From positions 153,967-217,966 of IMG/VR virus record IMGVR_UViG_3300042868_003731: DNA of 64,000 nucleotides; one strand, given 5' to 3'. The translations under genes and the position numbers were made by a program. Below, piece by piece: positions 32,725 to 55,754 of this stretch (position 1 is its first letter; each line of letters begins with the position of its first letter). Origin of the DNA: a virus. Its lineage: Duplodnaviria > Heunggongvirae > Uroviricota > Caudoviricetes. The notes under the pieces were generated by a model, which saw only the letters and a list, made by a program, of their open reading frames with translations, was not told where the DNA came from and did no database searches.

Positions 32725-33474
32725 TTACGCGTAGTCTAAAACTTTTTCTTCTGCGAGGATAAACGACTTCACGAGACCAGATCTTACGATGTCATCGACT
32801 GTGAATTCTATCGTTTTAAACTCTCTTATCTCTTTCAACACATTGATAAAGCTCGATAGTCCAGAGCGATCCAATCGGTTCTTAGAATTTCGAAGGTCGT
32901 CCTGCTTCGTATCACCACAGAAAATAATCTTAGAAGACTCGCCAACACGAGTCATAATTGATCTTATTTCTTCGTATGTCATGTTCTGGCATTCGTCAAC
33001 TACGATGACTGAGTTATCGAAAGTAAGACCACGAACAAACGAAGAGCTCATGAATTCGATGCATCCTTGCTGTTTCATAATGCTATAGCCATCAGATCTT
33101 CCAAACAAATCGTTTACTATATCTATATATGGCGTCTCATAGTATGCTATTTTTTCCTTAAGACTACCTGGCATAAATCCTTGATCGCGAGTCTGAACCG
33201 CAGATCGAATGACTATGACCTTTTCGTAGTTCTTTGTCTCCATCACGTCGTTCAACGCGAGATAGAGAGCACACATTGTTTTACCTGTTCCTGCTGTTCC
33301 GATGGCCGCTATGTTGTATCCTTGTTTATAATCGTCGAATAGCATCTCTTGAGTTGAAGTAATTGGTTGTATCTTTTTCATTGTGAACTTCTGATTAACT
33401 ACGTTCACTATATTATCTAGATTTCTTTCATGTCTTCTTTTTTCTTTTCGAGATAGACGACGTGATACTACCAT
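32725..33474 (-). CDS. phoH: PhoH-like phosphate-starvation-inducible ATPase
   Basis: Walker A 'GTAGTGKT', 'VIVVDECQNMT' (DExx box) and 'IIFCGDTKQDD' are typical of PhoH. Confidence 0.85.
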   Translation of the reverse strand: MVVSRRLSRKEKRRHERNLDNIVNVVNQKFTMKKIQPITSTQEMLFDDYKQGYNIAAIGTAGTGKTMCALYLALNDVMETKNYEKVIVIRSAVQTRDQGFMPGSLKEKIAYYETPYIDIVNDLFGRSDGYSIMKQQGCIEFMSSSFVRGLTFDNSVIVVDECQNMTYEEIRSIMTRVGESSKIIFCGDTKQDDLRNSKNRLDRSGLSSFINVLKEIREFKTIEFTVDDIVRSGLVKSFILAEEKVLDYA

Positions 33475-48784: not shown

Positions 48785-49741
48785 TTACTGGGCTGGCTTA
48801 GCAACAACGTCCATGAATGGAACAGTCGAGTCTGGGATCATAGTGGTAGGAAGAGCACCGTTCCACTTTTCAGCTTGAACTAGAGCAATCAAACCTGCGT
48901 TATCCTTCAGAGCTTCTGCTTTCGCCTTAATCGCGCTTGCTTCTGCTTCACCTTGAATACGAGTTGCTTCTGCGGCCGCAACTGCTTGAGCTAGTTGAGC
49001 GTCGGCTTGTGCCTGTGCCTGAGTCACGACGATCTCAGCCTGAACCTTTTCACGTTCTGCGTTCTGCCGAACCTTTTGCACTTCGACTTCTGCAAGCATA
49101 CGAGCTTCAATCGATTGTTCATAAGCATCAGAGAAGTCGATGTTCTCAATTTGAACCGACTCAACGATGATAGGACCAATTACAGCTTTCTGGATTGCCA
49201 TCTGAACTTCTGCAGCAAGACGTTCACGTTCCTGAATAGCGGTTGCTGCGTTGAACTTACCAAAGACGTTCTTGACTTCTTCAAGAACCTGACGATCAAG
49301 CAAGCGAGAGATCACGCCAGCTTCGCCACCATATTCACGATAGATCGTCTCAACTTGATCTGCAGGGAAGCGATAGTTAACAGACAGGTTTAGACCCGCA
49401 GTCTGTTGATCACGAGAGTAAGCAAGGATGTTCTCGTACAACTGAGCCTGTGATTGAACAGAAATATCAACCACCTTTTCGATCAAAGGGATTTTAAATC
49501 CAAGACCTGGTTCTGCAGTACCAACCACGGCACCGTTACGAAGAGTTACACCACGGTAACCTTCATCAACAGTATACCACGATCCGCCAATTACAGTCAG
49601 TGCAGTAAGACCGACGACAGTAGCGATAGTTCCACCAACGATAGCATTCATTTTCATTTTCCTTTTACGTTCATTATATTGATTTAGTGCTGCTTCATAC
49701 TCAGCTTTAGTGTTAAAGTCATAGCGATCAGGTTTAAACAT
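48785..49741 (-). CDS. SPFH/band-7 (prohibitin/HflKC-like) membrane protein
   Basis: N-terminal TM helix, then 'YTVDEGYRGVTLRNGAV' and the long Ala/Glu/Gln-rich coiled-coil typical of band-7 proteins. GC-elevated. Confidence 0.75.
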   Translation of the reverse strand: MFKPDRYDFNTKAEYEAALNQYNERKRKMKMNAIVGGTIATVVGLTALTVIGGSWYTVDEGYRGVTLRNGAVVGTAEPGLGFKIPLIEKVVDISVQSQAQLYENILAYSRDQQTAGLNLSVNYRFPADQVETIYREYGGEAGVISRLLDRQVLEEVKNVFGKFNAATAIQERERLAAEVQMAIQKAVIGPIIVESVQIENIDFSDAYEQSIEARMLAEVEVQKVRQNAEREKVQAEIVVTQAQAQADAQLAQAVAAAEATRIQGEAEASAIKAKAEALKDNAGLIALVQAEKWNGALPTTMIPDSTVPFMDVVAKPAQ

Positions 49742-49959: not shown

Positions 49960-50544
49960 TCATGCATTTTTCTTCTCCATAATTACATTGCAAAAGATGT
50001 CGACAATGGTGATCTTATCGAAGCCTTCATCGAGTTCAGGTTCAACATAGGAATCAGCCATAGCTTCAATGATGTGATGAGGGATAGTCTTCCCAGGACG
50101 AGAATCAAGGCGACGATCGAGTTCAGCCCACTCTTCAGCAGTCTGAGGAACACGAACGCACCAACATTCCTTGTGATAGTTCTTAGGGAACTTCGACAAG
50201 ATGCTCTTACGCTTCTTCGAAGACATATTAGTCTGATCCCAGTACACATCAATCCCTGCGCTGATAGCAATTGCAAGCACATTATTCATATGCTTAGTTG
50301 CTTCGTTGATGTGATCACCGAACACGTCGTCGTAAGACTTACCAGCTTCTTTGGCTCGAGCTTCGATATATGCATCAGTGCTATACACAAAGACGTCTCC
50401 ACCAAACTCCGGATCGTCAACAAACGACAATCGAGTCGACTTACCTGAACCAGGCAGACCTACGAGAACTTCAACCTTAGGCATCTTCGCCAACCTCTGC
50501 ATCTTCAAAAATCTTGTTAAAGGTAATCTCGTTGTATTCGCCAC
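49960..50544 (-). CDS. Polynucleotide 5'-kinase (stand-alone kinase domain of T4 PseT/Pnkp)
   Basis: 'VLVGLPGSGKST' P-loop and 'WDQTNMSSKKRKSILSKF..CVRVPQTAEEWAELDRR..GKTIPHHIIEAM' parallel T4 Pnkp 'ISDTNLNPERRLAWETF..HKVFDVPWTELVKRNSKR..TKAVPIDVLRSM'. Confidence 0.65.
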   Translation of the reverse strand: MANTTRLPLTRFLKMQRLAKMPKVEVLVGLPGSGKSTRLSFVDDPEFGGDVFVYSTDAYIEARAKEAGKSYDDVFGDHINEATKHMNNVLAIAISAGIDVYWDQTNMSSKKRKSILSKFPKNYHKECWCVRVPQTAEEWAELDRRLDSRPGKTIPHHIIEAMADSYVEPELDEGFDKITIVDIFCNVIMEKKNA

Positions 50545-50818: not shown

Positions 50819-51577
50819 TTAAACTTTTTTTCGAACAGACTCATTATATTTTACGGCAGCTTCTAGCGTCTGTAGCTCGACGCCTGAGTTCTTTGCCGTC
50901 TGCAGAATCGCCGCGGTATCCTTTGGAAAACACGCTCCGCCCCAGCCTCTATCGTTCTCATTTACAAAAGTATGGCTCTCACCGATACGAGAGTCTAACG
51001 TGACACCAGAGCGAACCGACTCGTAATCCAATCCGAGCGTTTCACAGAAATCGTAGATCTCGTTGAAGAAGCTACACTTTGCCGCAAGAAACGAGTTTCG
51101 AAAATACTTGATGGCAATTGCGTGCTTTGGCTTACATACAGTTATGCTGATGTCTGGATACACCGTCGTGTAAAAATCTAACCAGTATTGAACGTTACCG
51201 CCAGCCAAGAACGCATGAGTGAGGTTCTTAAGGTCGTCGTCTGCGCTTGCAGCTCGAAGAAATTCTGGACTAAATGTGATGGAGTGTTCAGGAAAGTTTC
51301 TTTCGAGAGTTTCCCATCCCTCCATCGATATCGTGCTCTTAATGAGAATTGGAGCTTCTTTTGGAATGTCTTGAATTACATTATAGATTATGCTCATATC
51401 ACAGCTTCCATCTTCAGATGATGGAGTCGAAACACAGACGATAGCACCACTAATGTTTTCTATGTCTTTGATACGAATATTGCTGAAGGCCGGATCTACG
51501 ATAGACATTTCGTGATGAGGGCTAAACGCTTTATAGTGAGCTTTACCAACGAAGCCGTATCCTAATAGTACAATCAT
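50819..51577 (-). CDS. Short UDP-glucose/GDP-mannose dehydrogenase-family protein
   Basis: N-terminal 'VLLGYGFVGKA' Rossmann motif and 'GWGGACFPKDTAAI' catalytic-Cys motif (GG.C.PKD). At 252 aa it is shorter than canonical UDPGDH. Confidence 0.6.
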   Translation of the reverse strand: MIVLLGYGFVGKAHYKAFSPHHEMSIVDPAFSNIRIKDIENISGAIVCVSTPSSEDGSCDMSIIYNVIQDIPKEAPILIKSTISMEGWETLERNFPEHSITFSPEFLRAASADDDLKNLTHAFLAGGNVQYWLDFYTTVYPDISITVCKPKHAIAIKYFRNSFLAAKCSFFNEIYDFCETLGLDYESVRSGVTLDSRIGESHTFVNENDRGWGGACFPKDTAAILQTAKNSGVELQTLEAAVKYNESVRKKV

Positions 51578-51587
51578 GGTTTATCCT

Positions 51588-52595
51588 CTAGTTAGTTTTA
51601 CAGTTTATAAGATTGTCTCGAAAAATGTTCCAAGCGTTTCCCCAATCCCATTTCATGCTGAATTTGTATACTGATTCTCTATCGAGGTCAAGAGATTTTT
51701 TAATAGCGATAGTGATATCCTCATCCATATAACCAGTTACATCTTGATCTATTACGTCTAATGGTCCTTGCACAGGATAAGCAGCGACCGGAGTACCGCA
51801 TGCCATTGCCTCAATCATCACCAATCCAAATGTATCCCAACGACTAGGAAACACAAAAACATCAGCCTGTTGATAATAATGCGCGAGTTCAGCACCACGT
51901 TTGGCACCTACAAAGTTCACGTAAGGATATTGCTTCTTGTATGTTTCTAACATAGGACCATCGCCTACGATAGTTTTAACTGCATTGGGGTAGTTTATCT
52001 CAAGAAAAGCTTCCAGATTTTTTTCTTTGCTTACTCGACTCACGCAAACGAGGTTAATGTGCGAGCATGGTTCTTTCACTGCCGGTTTGAATATATCCCT
52101 ATCAACTCCTCGAGTCCAATGAATAACATTGTTATTAAATCCATGCGCATGAAGTTCATCGACCATTGATTTTGTCGTAGTGAGTACCTTATTGCTATTC
52201 TTATGGAACCAGCGCACAACTGCCCAAGTAATTCCTTCAGGAATTCCTAGTAACGTCCTTACACCTTCAGGAAACTTAGTATGGTAAGCAGTATTGTACT
52301 TAATCCCACGTATTGCAAGATACCTTCTAGCAGACATACCCATAGGACCTTCTGTGGCGATGTGTATATAATCCGGATCAATCTTCTTGATCTCTTTCCC
52401 AACAACCCAAGGAGGTGCCCAGGCAAGCTTAACTTCATTGTACTTTGGGCAATCAATATGGCCGTACATCCCGGGATGAATATAATCAACAGTATAACCG
52501 TCGCGAATCGCATACGTCTCAATATTTTTGTAGGTCGTAACCACACCATTAATCTGATTCGGTAAGTTGTCTGTAACTATTAAGATCTTCGGCAT
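51588..52595 (-). CDS. GT4-family (GT-B) glycosyltransferase
   Basis: 'FPSRWDTFGLVMIEAMACGTPVAA' fits the E-x7-E motif. Confidence 0.7.
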   Translation of the reverse strand: MPKILIVTDNLPNQINGVVTTYKNIETYAIRDGYTVDYIHPGMYGHIDCPKYNEVKLAWAPPWVVGKEIKKIDPDYIHIATEGPMGMSARRYLAIRGIKYNTAYHTKFPEGVRTLLGIPEGITWAVVRWFHKNSNKVLTTTKSMVDELHAHGFNNNVIHWTRGVDRDIFKPAVKEPCSHINLVCVSRVSKEKNLEAFLEINYPNAVKTIVGDGPMLETYKKQYPYVNFVGAKRGAELAHYYQQADVFVFPSRWDTFGLVMIEAMACGTPVAAYPVQGPLDVIDQDVTGYMDEDITIAIKKSLDLDRESVYKFSMKWDWGNAWNIFRDNLINCKTN

Positions 52596-53319
52596 AATGC
52601 ACTATCTCCCATCTTCCATCAAAGTGTTCTACCAGAGCGGTGGCACTCTCGACCCAGTCGCCATCGTTCATGTATATAACACCATTTATTTCTTTTATTT
52701 CAGCATGATGAATGTGACCACAAATTATTCCGTCATATCCATGTTGCTTACAATAGGCAGCTAGATGTTCTTCGTAACGATTGATAAAGTTTAACGCGTG
52801 TTTAGTATTCTGTTTTAGATATTTACTTAAACTCCAATAGTCCATACCAAACAAACTTCTTACTCGATTAAACTGAACATTGGCATATATCATAGCGTCA
52901 TACAAAGTATCTCCAATGTGCATCAACCATTTTTTATCATGCATCAATACGTCAAAGAAGTCACCATGAATAACCAGATAACGTTTGCCGTCTAAACCTA
53001 TGTAGTCTTGTCTGTTAGTTACTTTAATATTACCGAAGCTGATATCAAAGTTTAAAAACTTACGGCCTGCTTCATCGTGATTACCTAATATGTATTCTAC
53101 TCTAGTGCCACGCTTAGCTGCCGTGAGTATTCTGCGTATCACATTGGCATGACTCTGTGGAAAGTACCAACGTTTCTTTAAGCGCCAACCATCCAGCATA
53201 TCACCAACTAGGAATAGGTTTTCGCTTGTGTTGTTTTTTAAGAAAACACAGAGGGCGTCTGCTTGACACCCTCTGGTTCCTAAATGCACATCACTTATGA
53301 AGATGCTTTTATATTTCAT
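52549..53319 (-). CDS. LpxH-like calcineurin-type metallophosphoesterase (nucleotide-sugar pyrophosphatase family)
   Basis: 'IFISDVHLG', 'LFLVGDMLDGW' and 'ICGHIHHAEI' match the LpxH arrangement (FISDLHL / GDlFeaWiGDD / GHTH). Confidence 0.5.
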   Translation of the reverse strand: MKYKSIFISDVHLGTRGCQADALCVFLKNNTSENLFLVGDMLDGWRLKKRWYFPQSHANVIRRILTAAKRGTRVEYILGNHDEAGRKFLNFDISFGNIKVTNRQDYIGLDGKRYLVIHGDFFDVLMHDKKWLMHIGDTLYDAMIYANVQFNRVRSLFGMDYWSLSKYLKQNTKHALNFINRYEEHLAAYCKQHGYDGIICGHIHHAEIKEINGVIYMNDGDWVESATALVEHFDGRWEIVHYAEDLNSYRQLTESD

Positions 53320-53321
53320 TC

Positions 53322-54287
53322 TTATTTAAGAGCAGAAACTTCAGCCTGAGTAGCTGCAAGTTCTGGATCTGGAACCAATCCATACTGTGCAAGAGCGCCA
53401 TCAGGACCTGCCATCTCATCACTCACGAAGAACTCGATGTATTCCTTCAGACCAGGAATGACGCTGAGGTGAGCGTTCTTCACGTAGAAGTAAAGTGGAC
53501 GGCTGATTGGATAGTCACCGCTTGAGATGGTTTCTACGCTTGGTGCCACGCCACTTACCGTGGCAACTTCTAGTTTATCAGTGTTGTTCTGATAGAAGCT
53601 AAGACCAAACACACCTAGCGATGTTTTATTAGCATCAAGACGAGCAAGTGTTTCTGTGTAGTCGCCATCGATGTCAACTGCTGCACCGTCAGTTCTTACT
53701 TTCACACAAGCTTTCTTTTGATCGTCATCGAGTTTCTCAACACCGAGAGCTGCTTTACAACCTTCTTCCATCACCTTTACATCGAACACTTCACGAGTGC
53801 CGTGTTTGGTACCTGGAATGTATGCAAGGATTGCTACTTCTGGAAGAGTCGAGTCGACTTCACTCCAGAGTTTTGCAGTGCTCGACTCGTGTAGAGCGCT
53901 ATAGAGTTGTTCGACTGTTAGATTATCGATATTAAGTTGATCGATGTTCGATGCAAACACGATACCGTCATAACCAATACGAACCTCAGTCACTTCACCA
54001 ATTGCTTCTTCACACTTGGCTCTTTCTTCATCCTTCATCTTTGAAGAACTATTTGCGATGTCAACAGTGTTTTCACCAACACCTTCGCAGAGCTTCTTAC
54101 GGCCTGCACCCGAACCACCACCTTCAACTACTGGCGACGGAAAATCAAAATTTTCACCAAATGCCTCTGCGACAATGGTTGCATATGGTAGTACTGTAGA
54201 CGATCCTGTTACTTGAACGTTATCTCTTGCAAACGCAGTCGTGGACGCCAAAGCAATAATTGCCGCCGCTGATAGTAAAGCTTTCAT
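53322..54287 (-). CDS. pstS: Periplasmic phosphate-binding protein PstS (PBP_like_2) with signal peptide
   Basis: Signal peptide 'MKALLSAAAIIALASTTAFA', then 'VQVTGSSTVLPYATIVAEAF' and 'GGGSGAGRKKL', the hallmarks of phosphate-binding SBPs. Confidence 0.75.
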   Translation of the reverse strand: MKALLSAAAIIALASTTAFARDNVQVTGSSTVLPYATIVAEAFGENFDFPSPVVEGGGSGAGRKKLCEGVGENTVDIANSSSKMKDEERAKCEEAIGEVTEVRIGYDGIVFASNIDQLNIDNLTVEQLYSALHESSTAKLWSEVDSTLPEVAILAYIPGTKHGTREVFDVKVMEEGCKAALGVEKLDDDQKKACVKVRTDGAAVDIDGDYTETLARLDANKTSLGVFGLSFYQNNTDKLEVATVSGVAPSVETISSGDYPISRPLYFYVKNAHLSVIPGLKEYIEFFVSDEMAGPDGALAQYGLVPDPELAATQAEVSALK

Positions 54288-54349
54288 ATAATTCTCCTTT
54301 GTTTAAATATCCCTATTCATTGGGGATATTACTATATTATATTGAAGAT

Positions 54350-54367
54350 GTAACAATCGTATAACAG
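54350..54367 (-). promoter_or_regulatory. Pho-box-like direct repeat (CTGTTAT-ACGA-TTGTTAC), 8 bp upstream of a TATAAT -10, in front of pstS
   Basis: The - strand reads CTGTTATACGATTGTTAC-ATCTTCAA-TATAAT. It matches the CTGTCAT-N4-CTGTCAT PhoB consensus at 11 of 14 positions. A leader hairpin (AATATCCC..GGGATATT) follows. Confidence 0.45.
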
Positions 54368-54388
54368 TTGGAATAAATTTTTGTAAAA

Positions 54389-55048
54389 TTAATCCCAAAG
54401 TGAAAAATAATACTTTCCAAAAAGTCGGTGGCCGTTCTTGATGCGATCGTAGTGAGCTTTCTTACCTTCTTCGTCTACCTTGAACGTATGGTTCGGGCCA
54501 TATTCCATTCTAGAGTATTTGTCGTCTTCTTTTACAAACTTCCAATCAACCTCACCAGAGTAGAATTGATCGTCACCAGTGTCGTCCTTTGCGCATTGCT
54601 CGAATGCCCAGATCATCTCGTCGAGAACCCAGTCCCAACGTGCTTCGTGGTTATCATCAATGTCCCATTCATCCCTTTTTGGTGGTGCAGCAGTGCTACG
54701 AAGATGCTCAGGAACATCCTCATCATCAACATAAGGTGCACCGTGCTTGTTCTCTTTCAGCTTCAACAGCAAAGGATGAACAAGCATTGCGATCGTATGA
54801 TCCGCACCCCAAACATCGTATCCGTCAACGTGGATCTTAACCTTGCGTTGAGCTTTGTCAAGATACTTATTGATAGTTTTGTTATAGAGAGTTTGAAGGG
54901 CACTCTCGAGTTTGTAAGTAAACTTGTCCATCCAAGTATACTTGTCTTCATCCATATCCCACCATGTCTCGGCGTACTTTCTATCCATCCAACGATCATG
55001 GACTTTAGAAATCCAACGGTAGCGATAAGGTCCTATGTATACACGCAT
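54389..55048 (-). CDS. Hypothetical Trp-rich protein
   Basis: ORF; unusual W/D/K-rich composition. Confidence 0.4.
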   Translation of the reverse strand: MRVYIGPYRYRWISKVHDRWMDRKYAETWWDMDEDKYTWMDKFTYKLESALQTLYNKTINKYLDKAQRKVKIHVDGYDVWGADHTIAMLVHPLLLKLKENKHGAPYVDDEDVPEHLRSTAAPPKRDEWDIDDNHEARWDWVLDEMIWAFEQCAKDDTGDDQFYSGEVDWKFVKEDDKYSRMEYGPNHTFKVDEEGKKAHYDRIKNGHRLFGKYYFSLWD

Positions 55049-55050
55049 CT

Positions 55051-55233
55051 TTATCCCTCGTATTTTTCTTTTAGTCGAGCAAGTTCGGCTCGTTCTTTAC
55101 GTTCTTTGTCTTTACGCAGCCATCTGATATAGATATCTTGGTCGTATGTACAATCCTTATTGCAGCATTCCCAACCGATAGGACCACAATCGGTGAGTGG
55201 CTGTTTACACCCTTCACATACTAACTCAGTCAT
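55051..55233 (-). CDS. Small Cys-rich zinc-ribbon-like protein
   Basis: CEGC...C..C...CC..C pattern in 60 aa. Confidence 0.35.
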   Translation of the reverse strand: MTELVCEGCKQPLTDCGPIGWECCNKDCTYDQDIYIRWLRKDKERKERAELARLKEKYEG

Positions 55234-55754
55234 TCGATTACCTCGTTTGGAAACTGTTCTGTTGGTACAAAAACATACTCAGGCTTTTCTGGTTGTGTCC
55301 ACGGAAACTCAATAAACACTCGGCTTTCACGACCCGTATAGTAGCTCTTATATGGTTTACCTTCGTCAATATCTGGCGATGAATACCATTCCCAAAACAC
55401 TCGACCATCCATCCAGTATGGTCGCCCATCTTCATCCTTAAAGACAGAACTGTTACGTTTGTTCTGCCACATATCTGCGCTGACTTCCGTCCACTCGTCA
55501 GATTCGCCAGTCAAAGGAGCAATAGGTTTCCATGATGCGAGCTTCTCAAACAAAGCTACTGCATACGGTGCCGACATACCGCTGTGTCCTTGTTCTGAGA
55601 ACACTTTGAGAAGCTCAAGCGTTCCTTCTGCAAGCCAACGGTTTGGTCCATCTTCTGGATCATTAATATCATATCCAGCCAGTTTAAGTTCGGCTTCCGC
55701 CCATTTCAACATGTTGCTCATTTGCTTTCCTCTATTAGATTTTTCAAGCGCCAC
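55230..55754 (-). CDS. Hypothetical protein
   Basis: ORF. Confidence 0.35.
   Translation of the reverse strand: MALEKSNRGKQMSNMLKWAEAELKLAGYDINDPEDGPNRWLAEGTLELLKVFSEQGHSGMSAPYAVALFEKLASWKPIAPLTGESDEWTEVSADMWQNKRNSSVFKDEDGRPYWMDGRVFWEWYSSPDIDEGKPYKSYYTGRESRVFIEFPWTQPEKPEYVFVPTEQFPNEVIE

What the first reader, a model, noticed from the sequence alone, without database searches (positions are those of the whole stretch)
54288..54388. Host-type Pho box plus -10 hexamer and leader hairpin upstream of a phage pstS
On the - strand, 60-80 bp upstream of the pstS ATG, the sequence reads CTGTTAT-ACGA-TTGTTAC-ATCTTCAA-TATAAT. Two 7-bp direct repeats separated by 4 bp match the PhoB-binding CTGTCAT-N4-CTGTCAT consensus at 11 of 14 positions, positioned where a -35 would be. 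An AATATCCC/GGGATATT hairpin follows in the leader. Together with phoH (32725-33474), this suggests the phage places its own high-affinity phosphate-binding protein under the host phosphate-starvation regulon, as shown for cyanophage pstS. Here the host context looks alphaproteobacterial.
Basis: partly seen in the sequence, partly recalled or inferred. Interest (0 to 1): 0.7.

Follow-up and report, generated by a model that had tools for sequence, protein, structure and literature searches.

The report
Host-type Pho box on phage pstS
A T4-like marine phage carries, in front of its phosphate-binding-protein gene, the same phosphate-starvation switch (Pho box) that Rhodobacterales bacteria use on their own pstS, and in this phage the switch probably also drives three genes that swap membrane phospholipids for phosphorus-free glycolipids.

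Summary
The sequence is as described, but it matches CTGTCAT-N4-CTGTCAT at 10/14, not 11/14. By that E. coli count it is no better than chance (54 such sites in the window, 57 expected). Lineage-appropriate tests show it is real.

- **Conservation:** 54 of 61 distinct related phage loci keep NTKTNAY-N4-YTGTTAC upstream of pstS, with a TAnAnT −10 exactly 10 nt downstream.
- **Phage-family PWM (window excluded):** 22.5 bits, the best hit in the window and above all 200 shuffles.
- **Rhodobacterales chromosomal PWM:** 16.9 bits. Targeted P is 5–9e-5, and pstS is the only one of 91 genes with an upstream hit above 8 bits.
- **Related phages:** in L063/L048 the same array heads a phoX–pstS pair.

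The closest cellular PstS proteins (60–68%) are all Rhodobacterales, so the alphaproteobacterial reading holds. phoH has no box.

The leader hairpin exists (8 bp, −7.5 kcal/mol). It is marginal on its own but recurs across the family.

New here: pstS is followed 2 nt later by plcP (49% identical to the validated PA3219), agt (41% to PA3218) and a UDP-glucose dehydrogenase. That is a phosphate-stress lipid-renovation cassette with no promoter of its own.

Everything is in silico. PhoB binding is untested.

The parts
54350..54367 (-). Core Pho box: CTGTTAT-ACGA-TTGTTAC. Two 7-bp direct repeats with an 11-bp period; predicted binding site for a PhoB~P dimer.
   Evidence: sequence; 22.5 bits with the phage-family PWM, best in the window, 0/200 shuffles; 16.9 bits with the Rhodobacterales-only PWM, targeted P 5-9e-5; conserved in 54/61 distinct relatives.
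54372..54389 (-). Possible upstream second Pho box in 11-bp register: ATTTTAC (54389..54383, overlapping the last base of the upstream stop codon) - AAAA - ATTTATT (54378..54372). The first half-site is decent and the second is weak.
   Evidence: family columns show a periodic T-n-A at -8/-6 and -19/-17 relative to the core box. Relatives such as L015 and L063 have four clear half-sites. In the window this is only a weak match, so it is an inference.
54334..54341 (-). -10 region. TATAAT (54341..54336) lies 8 nt after the box. The overlapping TAATAT (54339..54334) lies 10 nt after the box, which is the register conserved in the family. There is no -35 hexamer.
   Evidence: +11 T 45/54, +12 A 46/54, +14 A 37/54, +16 T 39/54; the generic -35/-10 scan finds no promoter here.
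54306..54330 (-). Leader stem-loop AATATCCC / CAATGAATA / GGGATATT, starting at or within 3 nt of the predicted transcription start. It does not cover the SD.
   Evidence: 8 bp, -7.5 kcal/mol, p=0.007 by stem score. (present in MFE and centroid; whole-leader z=0.03). (family: mean z -1.37, 35% below -1.64, p 6e-8; window z -1.5); not terminator-like on the - strand.
54294..54299 (-). Shine-Dalgarno AAGGAG, 6 nt before the pstS ATG.
   Evidence: read directly.
53322..54287 (-). pstS: periplasmic phosphate-binding protein with a signal peptide, 321 aa.
   Evidence: PBP_like_2, E 8e-54. (PstS family). (60-68% identical to Rhodobacterales PstS). (the exact protein is on 156- and 205-kb phage contigs).
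52549..53319 (-). plcP-like metallophosphoesterase (phospholipase C of the phosphate-stress lipid-renovation pathway). Its start codon is 2 nt after the pstS stop.
   Evidence: 49% identity, E 4e-87, full length, to P. aeruginosa PA3219, the validated PlcP (PMC8528852); only 46 bits against LpxH (cut-off 134); 56% identical to Mosig_00120.
53249..53275 (-). Very stable hairpin inside the 5' coding region of plcP (CAGAGGGTGTC-AAGCA-GACGCCCTCTG, followed by TGTTTTCTTA). Function unknown.
   Evidence: terminator-like: 11 bp, 7 GC. (-19.6 kcal/mol; 0/300 synonymous-codon resamplings are as stable; also present in the plcP of L047 and L169, which are not preceded by pstS).
51588..52595 (-). agt-like GT4 glycosyltransferase (makes glucosyl-/glucuronosyl-diacylglycerol). 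It overlaps the plcP 3' end by 47 nt.
   Evidence: 41% identity, E 8e-85, to P. aeruginosa PA3218/Agt1. (Glycos_transf_1, Glyco_transf_4).
50819..51577 (-). Short (252 aa) UDP-glucose 6-dehydrogenase-like protein with N-terminal and central domains only. It could supply UDP-glucuronate.
   Evidence: NDP-sugar dehydrogenase, E 8e-39, profile positions 73-299 of 413. (PF03721 weak, PF00984).
54389..55048 (-). Upstream 219-aa ORF of unknown function. Its stop codon abuts the Pho-box array, and no terminator lies between it and the promoter.
   Evidence: no family hit. (no - strand terminator between 54389 and 54350).

Best explanation
The 101-nt gap upstream of pstS is an activator-dependent promoter of the proteobacterial Pho-regulon type.

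Proposed mechanism:
- In a phosphate-starved host, phosphorylated PhoB binds head-to-tail as a dimer to the two 7-bp direct repeats CTGTTAT and TTGTTAC, which are 11 bp apart. It may also bind a weaker upstream pair.
- The repeats occupy the place of a -35 element. Bound PhoB recruits the host sigma-70 RNA polymerase to the -10, which is TAATAT 10 nt downstream with a perfect TATAAT overlapping it 2 nt upstream.
- Transcription starts at about 54326-54330, so the mRNA begins with, or inside, an 8-bp stem-loop. That stem-loop most likely protects the 5' end and leaves the Shine-Dalgarno sequence free.
- The transcript encodes PstS. The next gene starts 2 nt after the pstS stop and has no promoter or Pho box of its own, so the transcript probably continues into plcP, agt and a UDP-glucose dehydrogenase.
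- The net effect would be that the phage raises phosphate uptake and strips phosphate from host phospholipids only when the host reports phosphate stress.

What is shown: motif presence, its statistics, conservation, identity with the Rhodobacterales chromosomal pstS motif, -10 spacing, gene identities and gene spacing.

What is inferred: PhoB binding, Pi dependence, the transcription start, co-transcription, the role of the hairpin, and the host.
For: -: exact sequence.
- 54/61 distinct related phage pstS upstream regions carry NTKTNAY-N4-YTGTTAC. T4, A6, T15 and A17 are 54/54 and G14 is 51/54, while flanking columns carry 0.1-0.3 bits.
- A at +1 (52/54) and TAnAnT at +11..+16. This is the 10-nt box-to-(-10) spacing of E. 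coli Pho promoters (established knowledge). Periodic upstream half-sites are also seen.
- window site 22.5 bits with a PWM that excludes the window. It is the top hit on both strands, and 0/200 shuffles reach it. 60 of 63 same-strand hits above 14 bits in 457 kb of related loci lie within 230 nt upstream of pstS.
- the closest cellular PstS proteins are all Rhodobacterales, and the phage PWM finds YTGTCAT-N4-CTGTTAC 80-110 nt upstream of their chromosomal pstS, even at 60-69% GC.
- a PWM built only from those chromosomes gives 16.9 bits. Targeted P is 5-9e-5, and pstS is the only one of 91 upstream regions above 8 bits.
- L083 is a true phoR-pstSCA chromosome locus in a 39% GC Rhodobacteraceae genome.
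- in L063/L048 the same four-half-site array heads phoX-pstS.
- no -35-type promoter at the site and no - strand terminator in the gap.
- plcP and agt are orthologous to the validated PA3219 and PA3218.
- 2-nt, overlapping and 10-nt gene junctions.
- recurrent 5'-leader structure in the family.
- PMC4447250: definition of the Pho box and of PhoB-sigma recruitment.
- PMC10976474: precedent for PhoB control of cyanophage genes.
Against: - No experiment has been done. PMC10976474 showed that predicted phage Pho boxes can fail to bind PhoB and that unpredicted sites can bind.
- Against the E. coli consensus the site is 10/14, which is chance level.
- With the host-only PWM it is not window-wide significant. 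An antisense intragenic site at 49651-49668 scores 17.2 bits, and 13% of shuffles reach that.
- Both repeats have TGTTA rather than TGTCA. The distal TGTTA form is rare in Rhodobacterales (7/79).
- The host is not identified. The phage is 42% GC while most Rhodobacterales are 55-69%.
- No terminator separates the promoter from the upstream ORF, so read-through could express pstS without PhoB.
- A very stable hairpin with a U-rich tail 47 nt into plcP could stop transcription after pstS.
- plcP genes elsewhere in phages have no Pho box, and most relatives carry pstS alone. The extension to lipid genes is therefore specific to this phage and is unproven.
- The leader hairpin is not exceptional by folding energy alone.
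Confidence: 0.75

Rival explanations
1. Chance resemblance. An AT-rich intergenic spacer happens to contain two TGTTA pentamers 11 bp apart next to a TATAAT, and there is no regulatory function.
For:: 10/14 to the E. coli consensus is at background (54 observed, 57 expected); with the Rhodobacterales-only PWM, 13% of shuffled windows contain an equally good hit somewhere.
Against:: the same motif sits at the same place in 54/61 distinct relatives whose flanks are randomised; 22.5 bits, 0/200 shuffles; targeted P 5-9e-5, computed also with the AT-rich intergenic composition, and the only one of 91 upstream regions above 8 bits; the motif also heads phoX.
Confidence: 0.03
2. Inherited but idle promoter. 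The box came across with pstS when the gene was captured from a Rhodobacterales chromosome. Today pstS is expressed mainly by read-through from phage early promoters, with little or no dependence on PhoB.
For:: no terminator between the upstream ORF and the box, so read-through is possible; pstS sits in a long co-directional block of small ORFs typical of T4-like early regions; the motif is identical to the bacterial one, as expected for co-transfer.
Against: Phage and cellular PstS proteins are only 60-68% identical, and phage PstS proteins diverge to 60% among themselves. Even so, the box, the +1 A and the -10 spacing are kept while every neighbouring non-coding column has drifted. That indicates purifying selection inside phages. 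The box also travels with different cargo (phoX-pstS in L063), and the leader sequences differ in each lineage.
Confidence: 0.1
3. The repeats are read by another protein: a phage-encoded regulator, or a different OmpR/PhoB-family response regulator of the host that also binds direct repeats with an 11-bp period.
For: OmpR/PhoB-family regulators in general bind tandem direct repeats about 10-11 bp apart (established knowledge). The window covers only 64 kb of a phage of about 205 kb, so phage regulators cannot be excluded.
Against: The motif occurs upstream of chromosomal pstS next to phoR in bacteria and upstream of phoX in a phage. Both are classic PhoB targets. It occurs only once in the window, which is unlike a general phage promoter or operator.
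Confidence: 0.07
4. For the hairpin only: it is a terminator or insulator that stops read-through from upstream genes. Transcripts that start at the Pho promoter begin inside the 5' arm and so cannot form it. This would make pstS strictly PhoB-dependent.
For:: in several relatives (L053-L058, L068/L073, L027, L037) the leader hairpin is followed by a T-run and looks like an intrinsic terminator lying between promoter and gene. With the family -10 register, the predicted start (about 54326-54328) falls inside the 5' arm.
Against:: the window's hairpin does not meet terminator criteria on the - strand. It has only 3 GC pairs and the tail TAAACAAAGG has no U-tract. At -7.5 kcal/mol the stem is weak. 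The transcription start is unknown.
Confidence: 0.15

Closest known systems
Proteobacterial PhoB-dependent promoters (E. coli pstS, phoA, phoB; Pho box = two CTGTCAT repeats with a 4-bp AT-rich spacer; PMC4447250)
   Same: The 7-4-7 direct-repeat architecture with an 11-bp period. An A/T-rich 3' flank (A at +1). No -35 hexamer. A -10 lying 10 nt after the box in the family register. Further half-sites upstream, as in E. coli pstS. A location in front of pstS.
   Different: The core is TGTTA rather than TGTCA in both repeats, so the site is only 10/14 to the E. coli consensus, which is chance level. The element sits on a lytic T4-like phage genome. A perfect TATAAT lies at 8 nt instead of 10.
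Chromosomal pstS promoters of Rhodobacterales/Paracoccaceae
   Same: The same dialect, YTGTCAT-N4-CTGTTAC-A, with T at position 5 and C at position 7 of the proximal repeat (59/79 and 74/79). A similar distance to the start codon (63-80 nt here, 80-110 nt there). PstS proteins 60-68% identical.
   Different: The bacterial promoters usually continue with a third and fourth repeat (CTGTCRC-AAAAGC), where the phage has its -10. The bacterial distal repeat is TGTCA in 72/79, while the window has TGTTA. The bacterial operon continues with pstCAB and the phage one with plcP-agt-ugd.
Cyanophage pstS and other genes under host PhoBR control (P-SSM2; S-PM2d; PMC10976474)
   Same: The same strategy. A T4-like phage carries a host-derived pstS and lets the host's phosphate-starvation two-component system switch it on.
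   Different: Cyanophages use the cyanobacterial Pho box (PyTTAAPyPyT/A repeats with 3-nt spacers). That pattern is at background level in this window (73 matches against 85 +/- 10 expected). The cyanophage case has EMSA and expression data, and this one has none. The cargo and the host group differ.
PlcP-Agt phosphate-stress lipid renovation operons (Phaeobacter MED193, SAR11 HTCC7211, P. aeruginosa PA3219-PA3218; PMC4796936, PMC8528852)
   Same: A plcP-agt gene pair in the same order with overlapping junctions. 49% and 41% identity to the validated P. aeruginosa proteins. A Pho box upstream of the operon.
   Different: The cassette is phage-borne and placed behind pstS, sharing its Pho box. 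It is followed by a short UDP-glucose dehydrogenase. plcP carries a very stable intragenic hairpin. plcP in other phages has no Pho box.
Pelagibacter phage Mosig EXVC030M pstS / LpxH-like gene pair (MT647606; L002)
   Same: A cultured T4-like phage with pstS (about 40% identity) next to a plcP homolog (56%). The shared intergenic region contains ATGTTAA-GTTT-TTGTTAA, the same 7-4-7 layout with a TGTTA core.
   Different: The genes are divergent rather than tandem. The repeats end in A rather than Y, which may be a SAR11 dialect also seen in L065. The plcP homolog is annotated as a UDP-2,3-diacylglucosamine hydrolase. No agt or ugd is adjacent.

Membership tests
Proteobacterial PhoB-dependent (Pho-box) promoter | Two 7-bp direct repeats separated by 4 bp (11-bp period) | tested here: met
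   CTGTTAT-ACGA-TTGTTAC. The same layout is present in 54/61 distinct relatives.
Proteobacterial PhoB-dependent (Pho-box) promoter | Match to the enterobacterial consensus CTGTCAT-N4-CTGTCAT better than background | tested here: not met
   10/14. There are 54 sites at >=10/14 in the window against 57 +/- 9 expected. Both cores are TGTTA, not TGTCA.
Proteobacterial PhoB-dependent (Pho-box) promoter | Match to the Pho box of the presumed host lineage (alphaproteobacterial / Rhodobacterales pstS promoters) | tested here: met
   16.9 bits with a PWM from 79 chromosomal promoters. Targeted P is 5-9e-5, and this is the only one of 91 upstream regions above 8 bits. It is not window-wide significant (13% of shuffles).
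Proteobacterial PhoB-dependent (Pho-box) promoter | The box takes the place of the -35, with a -10 hexamer about 10 nt downstream | tested here: met
   no -35/-10 promoter called at the site; family TAnAnT at +11..+16. The window has TAATAT there and TATAAT at +9..+14.
Proteobacterial PhoB-dependent (Pho-box) promoter | Located upstream of Pho-regulon genes and conserved there | tested here: met
   60/63 strong same-strand hits in 457 kb lie within 230 nt upstream of pstS; the motif heads phoX-pstS in L063/L048; it is upstream of chromosomal pstS.
Proteobacterial PhoB-dependent (Pho-box) promoter | Bound by PhoB~P; transcription induced by Pi limitation in a phoB-dependent way | not testable with these tools
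   Needs EMSA or footprinting, reporter fusions, or transcriptomes of infected P-starved cells. The caution in PMC10976474 applies.
Cyanobacterial/cyanophage-type Pho box | Tandem PyTTAAPyPyT/A octamers separated by 3 nt | tested here: not met
   73 matches at <=3 mismatches against 85 +/- 10 expected. Only a background-level 3-mismatch hit lies at 54386-54404.
PlcP-Agt lipid-renovation operon | PlcP-type metallophosphoesterase (LpxH-related but not LpxH) | tested here: met
   49% identity, E 4e-87, to PA3219; 46 bits against the LpxH cut-off of 134; no solved LpxH matched by sequence.
PlcP-Agt lipid-renovation operon | Agt-type GT4 glycosyltransferase immediately downstream of plcP | tested here: met
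   41% identity, E 8e-85, to PA3218/Agt1. The two genes overlap by 47 nt.
PlcP-Agt lipid-renovation operon | Phospholipase C and MGDG/GADG synthase activities; induction under P stress | not testable with these tools
   Needs heterologous expression and lipidomics.
Intrinsic (Rho-independent) terminator, for the leader hairpin | GC-rich stem followed by a U-tract on the transcribed strand | tested here: not met
   not listed on the - strand. The stem has 3 GC pairs and the tail is TAAACAAAGG.
5'-terminal stabilising stem-loop (ompA-type), for the leader hairpin | Stem-loop within a few nt of the mRNA 5' end | tested here: inconclusive
   The stem starts 5 nt after TATAAT, or 3 nt after TAATAT. 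The predicted start therefore falls at or just inside its 5' arm, but the true start is unknown. Family-wide excess of structure at that position. In the window alone the excess is marginal.

The most novel reading that the evidence does not exclude
A phage of marine heterotrophs uses the host's PhoB signal to switch on a complete lipid-renovation programme as well as a phosphate-binding protein. PlcP would cleave the phosphate head groups from host phospholipids. Agt, with a UDP-glucose dehydrogenase, would rebuild the membrane from glucosyl- and glucuronosyl-diacylglycerol. The phage would thereby mine the host membrane for phosphorus to make its DNA, only when the cell is phosphate-starved. 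Related phages put phoX behind the same switch. Together these point to a phage-borne 'mini Pho regulon' in uncultured Rhodobacterales myoviruses.
Probability: 0.4. Interest if true: 0.8.

Novelty: new member of a known kind. Interest (0 to 1): 0.6.

Why it matters
Host PhoBR control of phage pstS has so far been demonstrated only for cyanophages, which use the cyanobacterial type of Pho box. This locus and more than 50 distinct relatives show the same strategy in T4-like phages that most likely infect Rhodobacterales. They use the proteobacterial 7-4-7 box in the exact dialect of the host's own pstS promoter. That gives a sequence-level marker for phosphate-responsive phage genes in metagenomes and metatranscriptomes of heterotroph phages. 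It also offers a possible host-lineage clue, because the box dialect seems to track the host: CTGTTAC here and TTGTTAA in SAR11 phages.

The plcP-agt-ugd block sits directly behind pstS, and phoX sits behind the same box in relatives. This suggests phages manipulate membrane phosphorus as well as phosphate uptake. In the pelagimyophage survey (PMC7029224), phage UDP-glucose dehydrogenase and glycosyltransferase genes were read as LPS O-chain genes. The Mosig plcP homolog is annotated as a UDP-2,3-diacylglucosamine hydrolase. If the lipid-renovation reading is confirmed, it would change how P budgets of infected cells are modelled in oligotrophic waters.

Tried and rejected
- **E. coli consensus mismatch count:** chance level, so it cannot carry the claim.
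- **Generic sigma-70 and terminator scan:** no promoter at the site, as expected for an activator-dependent promoter. The leader hairpin is not a - strand terminator. It scores as terminator-like only on the + strand, where there is no gene to terminate.
- **Cyanobacterial Pho-box pattern:** background level.
- **Rfam on 53100-54500:** nothing near a gathering score (best JA04, 30 against 81 bits, wrong strand).
- **blastn of the region against 50,697 phage records:** no match, so there is no close sequenced relative.
- **'Acinetobacter phage MD-2021a' PstS hits:** these are Acinetobacter chromosome contigs carrying pstSCAB, not phage. I used them only as an example of a bacterial Pho box.
- **phoH as part of the same regulon:** no box upstream, and phoH lies 16 nt from the preceding ORF.
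- **Phage plcP genes generally carry their own Pho box:** rejected. L169, L047, L005, L028, L165 and Mosig all score <=9 bits.
- **The strong hairpin at 53275..53249 is a pstS terminator:** weakened, because the same hairpin occurs in plcP genes not preceded by pstS.
- **Whole-leader folding energy as evidence for the hairpin:** z=0.03. Only the family-level test gives a signal.
- **First hairpin script:** timed out and was replaced.
- **Literature searches:** I looked for a phage plcP-agt cassette and for a proteobacterial-type Pho box on a heterotroph-phage pstS and found none in the held library. This is absence in that library only.
Full report
**What is there.**
On the - strand the gap between a 219-aa ORF (stop TAA at 54391..54389) and pstS (ATG at 54287) reads as follows:

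TTTTACAAAAATTTATTCCAA-CTGTTAT-ACGA-TTGTTAC-ATCTTCAA-TATAAT-ATAGT-AATATCCC-CAATGAATA-GGGATATT-TAAACA-AAGGAG-AATTAT-ATG

One number is wrong: the two repeats match CTGTCAT-N4-CTGTCAT at 10 of 14 positions (6/7 and 4/7), not 11.

The window is a T4-like myovirus. It has portal, major head protein, sheath, large terminase and a Dda helicase, and it is 42% GC. It has no DNA-level relative among 50,697 phage records. The pstS call is sound (PBP_like_2, E 8e-54; PstS family).

**Is it more than chance?**
There are 54 sites in the window that match the enterobacterial consensus at >=10/14, against 57 +/- 9 expected. The claim therefore has to rest on other evidence, and that evidence is strong.

A search of IMG/VR returned 80 phage loci whose PstS is 60-91% identical. 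I aligned their upstream regions on the start codon. I then refined an 18-nt PWM on the 61 distinct sequences, leaving out the window, a bacterial locus and two distant SAR11-phage-type loci.
- 54 of the 61 sequences carry NTKTNAY-N4-YTGTTAC.
- Positions T4, A6, T15 and A17 are invariant (54/54), and G14 is 51/54.
- Neighbouring non-coding columns carry only 0.1-0.3 bits.

With that PWM, which never saw the window, the window's site scores 22.5 bits. This is the single best hit on either strand of the 64 kb. The next hit is 14.5 bits and intragenic. None of 200 first-order Markov shuffles reaches 22.5 (95th percentile 18.5, maximum 21.1). Across 457 kb of related loci, 60 of 63 same-strand hits above 14 bits lie within 230 nt upstream of pstS. 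Only 7 hits lie elsewhere on either strand.

**Is it host-type, and which host?**
A scan of one genome per species returned 80 cellular loci with PstS 60-68% identical. All are Rhodobacterales/Paracoccaceae or unclassified alphaproteobacterial MAGs.

The phage-derived PWM finds YTGTCAT-N4-CTGTTAC-A 80-110 nt upstream of essentially all of these chromosomal pstS genes, including genomes at 60-69% GC. It is usually followed by a third and fourth repeat (CTGTCRC-AAAAGC). L083 is a 39% GC Rhodobacteraceae single-cell genome and is a real chromosome locus: gap, a PhoR-like histidine kinase, pstS, pstC, pstA.

For independence from phage data, I rebuilt a PWM from the 79 distinct bacterial promoters alone. 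I seeded it from the E. coli consensus and neutralised the spacer columns.
- Its consensus is YTGTCAT-N4-CTGTTAC (position 5 C 72/79; position 16 T 59/79; position 18 C 74/79).
- The window's site scores 16.9 bits, second in the window. An antisense intragenic site at 49651-49668 scores 17.2.
- Scanned window-wide this is not significant, because 13% of shuffles reach the top score.
- The hypothesis is targeted, though. The exact probability of >=16.9 bits in the 84 positions of this gap is 9e-5 with window composition and 5e-5 with the AT-rich gap composition.
- Among the 120-nt upstream regions of all 91 called genes, pstS is the only one above 8 bits (16.9 against a runner-up of 8.0).

The 'alphaproteobacterial' reading is therefore supported by the affinity of the gene and by the dialect of the box. 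The low-GC pelagic Rhodobacteraceae (L083, L085, L086, L098, L145; 39-41% GC) match the phage's 42% GC and are the most plausible host type. This is an inference. The major head protein is about equally close (61-67%) to Sinorhizobium, Methylophilales, Stenotrophomonas and Synechococcus phages.

**Promoter architecture.**
Downstream of the box the family shows three features:
- A at +1 (52/54).
- A partial third repeat or extended -10 at +6..+8 (T 43, G 26, T 41 of 54).
- T-A-n-A-n-T at +11..+16 (45, 46, 37 and 39 of 54).

This places a -10 hexamer exactly 10 nt after the box, which is the spacing of E. coli Pho promoters (established knowledge). It also fits the 22-bp PhoB footprint with A/T-rich flanks described in PMC4447250. 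In the window that register is TAATAT (54339..54334).

The generic -35/-10 scan calls no promoter here, as expected when an activator site replaces the -35. Upstream, the family shows a periodic T-n-A at -8/-6 and -19/-17, so many members have two tandem boxes, as in E. coli pstS. In the window ATTTTAC (54389..54383) is a fair half-site and ATTTATT (54378..54372) a poor one. A second box here is only a possibility.

**Independent corroboration from relatives.**
L048 and L063 lack a box directly upstream of pstS but have one about 2 kb upstream. There the array TTTTACA-AAAA-TTTCACA-CAAT-CTTCATA-TTAT-TGTTACA heads a 624-aa PhoX alkaline phosphatase (PF05787, E 6e-166) followed by pstS. So the same motif precedes a second classic Pho-regulon gene.

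Pelagibacter phage Mosig has ATGTTAA-GTTT-TTGTTAA between pstS and a divergent plcP homolog. L065, which is similar, has TTGTAAA-GGTT-TTGTTAA. This may be a SAR11 dialect. I did not test that.

The cyanobacterial type of Pho box known from cyanophage is at background level in the window (73 matches against 85 +/- 10 expected).

**The hairpin.**
AATATCCC/GGGATATT is a perfect 8-bp stem with a 9-nt loop and -7.5 kcal/mol. It appears in both the MFE and centroid structures and leaves the SD free.
- By stem score it beats shuffled leaders (p=0.007).
- The 72-nt leader as a whole is no more stable than dinucleotide shuffles (z=0.03).
- Over the 42 nt after the -10, the window has z=-1.5.
- At family level the signal is clearer. 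The best stem starts at a median of +25 after the box, 52% start at +17..+30, and the sequences are unrelated.
- The 42 nt after the -10 have mean z -1.37, with 35% below -1.64 where 5% is expected (t-test p 6e-8; the loci are not fully independent).

The stem begins 5 nt after TATAAT, or 3 nt after TAATAT, so it is at or just inside the predicted 5' end. I favour a 5'-terminal protective stem-loop, with low confidence. It is not a terminator by the usual criteria. In several relatives, however, the equivalent hairpin is followed by a T-run. That keeps alive an insulator model, in which read-through transcripts would terminate while Pho-initiated transcripts start inside the 5' arm. Rfam has no match.

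**What the promoter drives.**
pstS is followed on the same strand by three genes:
- a 256-aa metallophosphoesterase whose ATG is 2 nt after the pstS stop;
- a 335-aa GT4 glycosyltransferase that overlaps it by 47 nt;
- a 252-aa UDP-glucose 6-dehydrogenase-like protein 10 nt further on.

Neither PWM finds a second box in this block. One search lists only generic 9-of-12 sigma-70-like matches there, at chance frequency.

The metallophosphoesterase scores far below the LpxH cut-off (46 against 134 bits). It is 49% identical over its full length (E 4e-87) to P. aeruginosa PA3219. The glycosyltransferase is 41% identical (E 8e-85) to PA3218. I identified these two genes in L170 by their position next to cyaB.

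PA3219 and PA3218 are the experimentally validated PlcP and Agt1 of the phosphate-stress lipid-renovation pathway. PA3219 is itself 46-47% identical to the Phaeobacter and Sinorhizobium PlcPs (PMC8528852). plcP-agt operons with Pho boxes are widespread in marine heterotrophs (PMC4796936). The dehydrogenase could supply UDP-glucuronate for GADG. It lacks the C-terminal domain (profile positions 73-299 of 413), so its activity is uncertain.

This tight arrangement is specific to this phage.
- Most relatives carry pstS alone.
- L005 has pstS...plcP-agt, L047 has plcP-agt-pstS, and Mosig has the genes divergent.
- The nearest plcP homologs (about 70%) are on other T4-like marine phage contigs.
- plcP genes elsewhere have no Pho box of their own.

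The box therefore belongs to pstS. Only here would it extend to the lipid genes, and that remains an inference. A very stable hairpin inside the first 25 codons of plcP could attenuate read-through. It is -19.6 kcal/mol, 0/300 synonymous resamplings are as stable, and it has a U-rich tail. It also occurs in plcP genes not preceded by pstS, so its role is unexplained.

**Comparison with what is known, and novelty.**
The principle that a phage pstS is switched by the host PhoBR system is established for cyanophage, with EMSA support for some S-PM2d promoters. The same work warns that in-silico Pho boxes can mislead (PMC10976474).

For phages of heterotrophs the held literature has the following:
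- pstS reported in pelagimyophages as a structural variant, without any promoter analysis (PMC12379486);
- pelagimyophage UDP-glucose dehydrogenase and glycosyltransferases read as LPS O-chain genes (PMC7029224).

I found no report of a proteobacterial-type Pho box on such a phage, nor of a phage plcP-agt cassette. This is absence in that library only.

I therefore file the focal finding as a new member of a known kind. It is a well-supported, family-wide instance of Pho-regulon capture, in a new host group and with the proteobacterial box. The more novel and less certain part is the cargo behind the switch: plcP-agt-ugd here and phoX in relatives.

**Verdict.**
The sequence and coordinates are exact, the count is off by one, and the -10 register is probably 2 nt downstream.
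- Confidence that this is a functional PhoB-type promoter is about 0.75.
- Confidence that it also drives plcP-agt-ugd is about 0.6.
- Confidence that the hairpin is a 5' stabiliser is about 0.35.

Noticed in passing
window 50819-53319 (- strand): A phage-borne plcP-agt-ugd block (phospholipase C PlcP, Agt glycosyltransferase, short UDP-glucose dehydrogenase) lies directly behind pstS. It is a complete phosphate-stress lipid-renovation cassette. The pelagimyophage survey read phage UDP-glucose dehydrogenase and glycosyltransferase genes as LPS O-chain genes, and the Mosig plcP homolog is annotated as an LpxH-type hydrolase.
   Followed up: yes
window 53249-53275 (- strand): A very stable hairpin (-19.6 kcal/mol, 11 bp, U-rich tail) lies inside the first 25 codons of plcP. 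0/300 synonymous-codon resamplings are as stable. It is also present in the plcP of L047 and L169 and absent in L005, Mosig and L165. Its function is unknown.
   Followed up: partly
L063 1900-5000 and L048 (same arrangement): In these related phage contigs the four-half-site Pho-box array heads a phoX (alkaline phosphatase, 624 aa) - pstS pair. It is preceded by an agt-like GT4 and a RimK-like ATP-grasp gene.
   Followed up: partly
window 55230-55754 (- strand): A 174-aa ORF matches Pfam Tad3 (type I Thoeris inhibitor), E 6.7e-39. It lies three genes upstream of pstS.
   Followed up: no
L002 3851-3868 (Mosig EXVC030M) and L065: SAR11-phage-type pstS loci carry ATGTTAA-GTTT-TTGTTAA or TTGTAAA-GGTT-TTGTTAA. 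This is the same 7-4-7 layout, but the repeats end in A. It may be a SAR11 dialect of the Pho box, which would suggest that the box dialect tracks the host lineage.
   Followed up: partly
window 49651-49668 (+ strand): TTTTCATTTTCCTTTTAC scores 17.2 bits with the Rhodobacterales Pho-box PWM and overlaps a sigma-70-like hit (TTTTCA-18-TATATT). It is antisense inside a - strand gene, with no + strand gene downstream for about 10 kb. It is probably a chance match.
   Followed up: partly
L053-L058, L068/L073, L027, L037 (leaders of pstS): In several relatives the hairpin between the Pho promoter and pstS is followed by a T-run and looks like an intrinsic terminator placed after the promoter. This could be an attenuator or a read-through insulator.
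   Followed up: partly
L001 (CAKLQF020000007.1) and CAKLQH020000006.1: Records named 'Acinetobacter phage MD-2021a' in the phage collection are Acinetobacter chromosome contigs (lrp, ipdC, aroP, pstSCAB, sohB), not phage. Their pstS has a textbook CTGTAAC-TTAT-TTGTCAT box.
   Followed up: partly
window 50819-51577 (- strand); L006, L019, L022, L031, L032, L035, L038, L041, L054: UDP-glucose dehydrogenase-like genes (33-46% identical to the window's) lie within 0.1-3.1 kb of pstS in nine other listed loci (upstream of pstS in eight, downstream in L054). The window's copy lacks the C-terminal domain (252 aa).
   Followed up: no
window 49960-50502 (- strand): A Zeta-toxin/AAA_33-type kinase-like ORF (weak polynucleotide kinase similarity) lies two genes downstream of the ugd-like gene. 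The same family sits next to plcP in the Tara phage contigs L165-L168.
   Followed up: no
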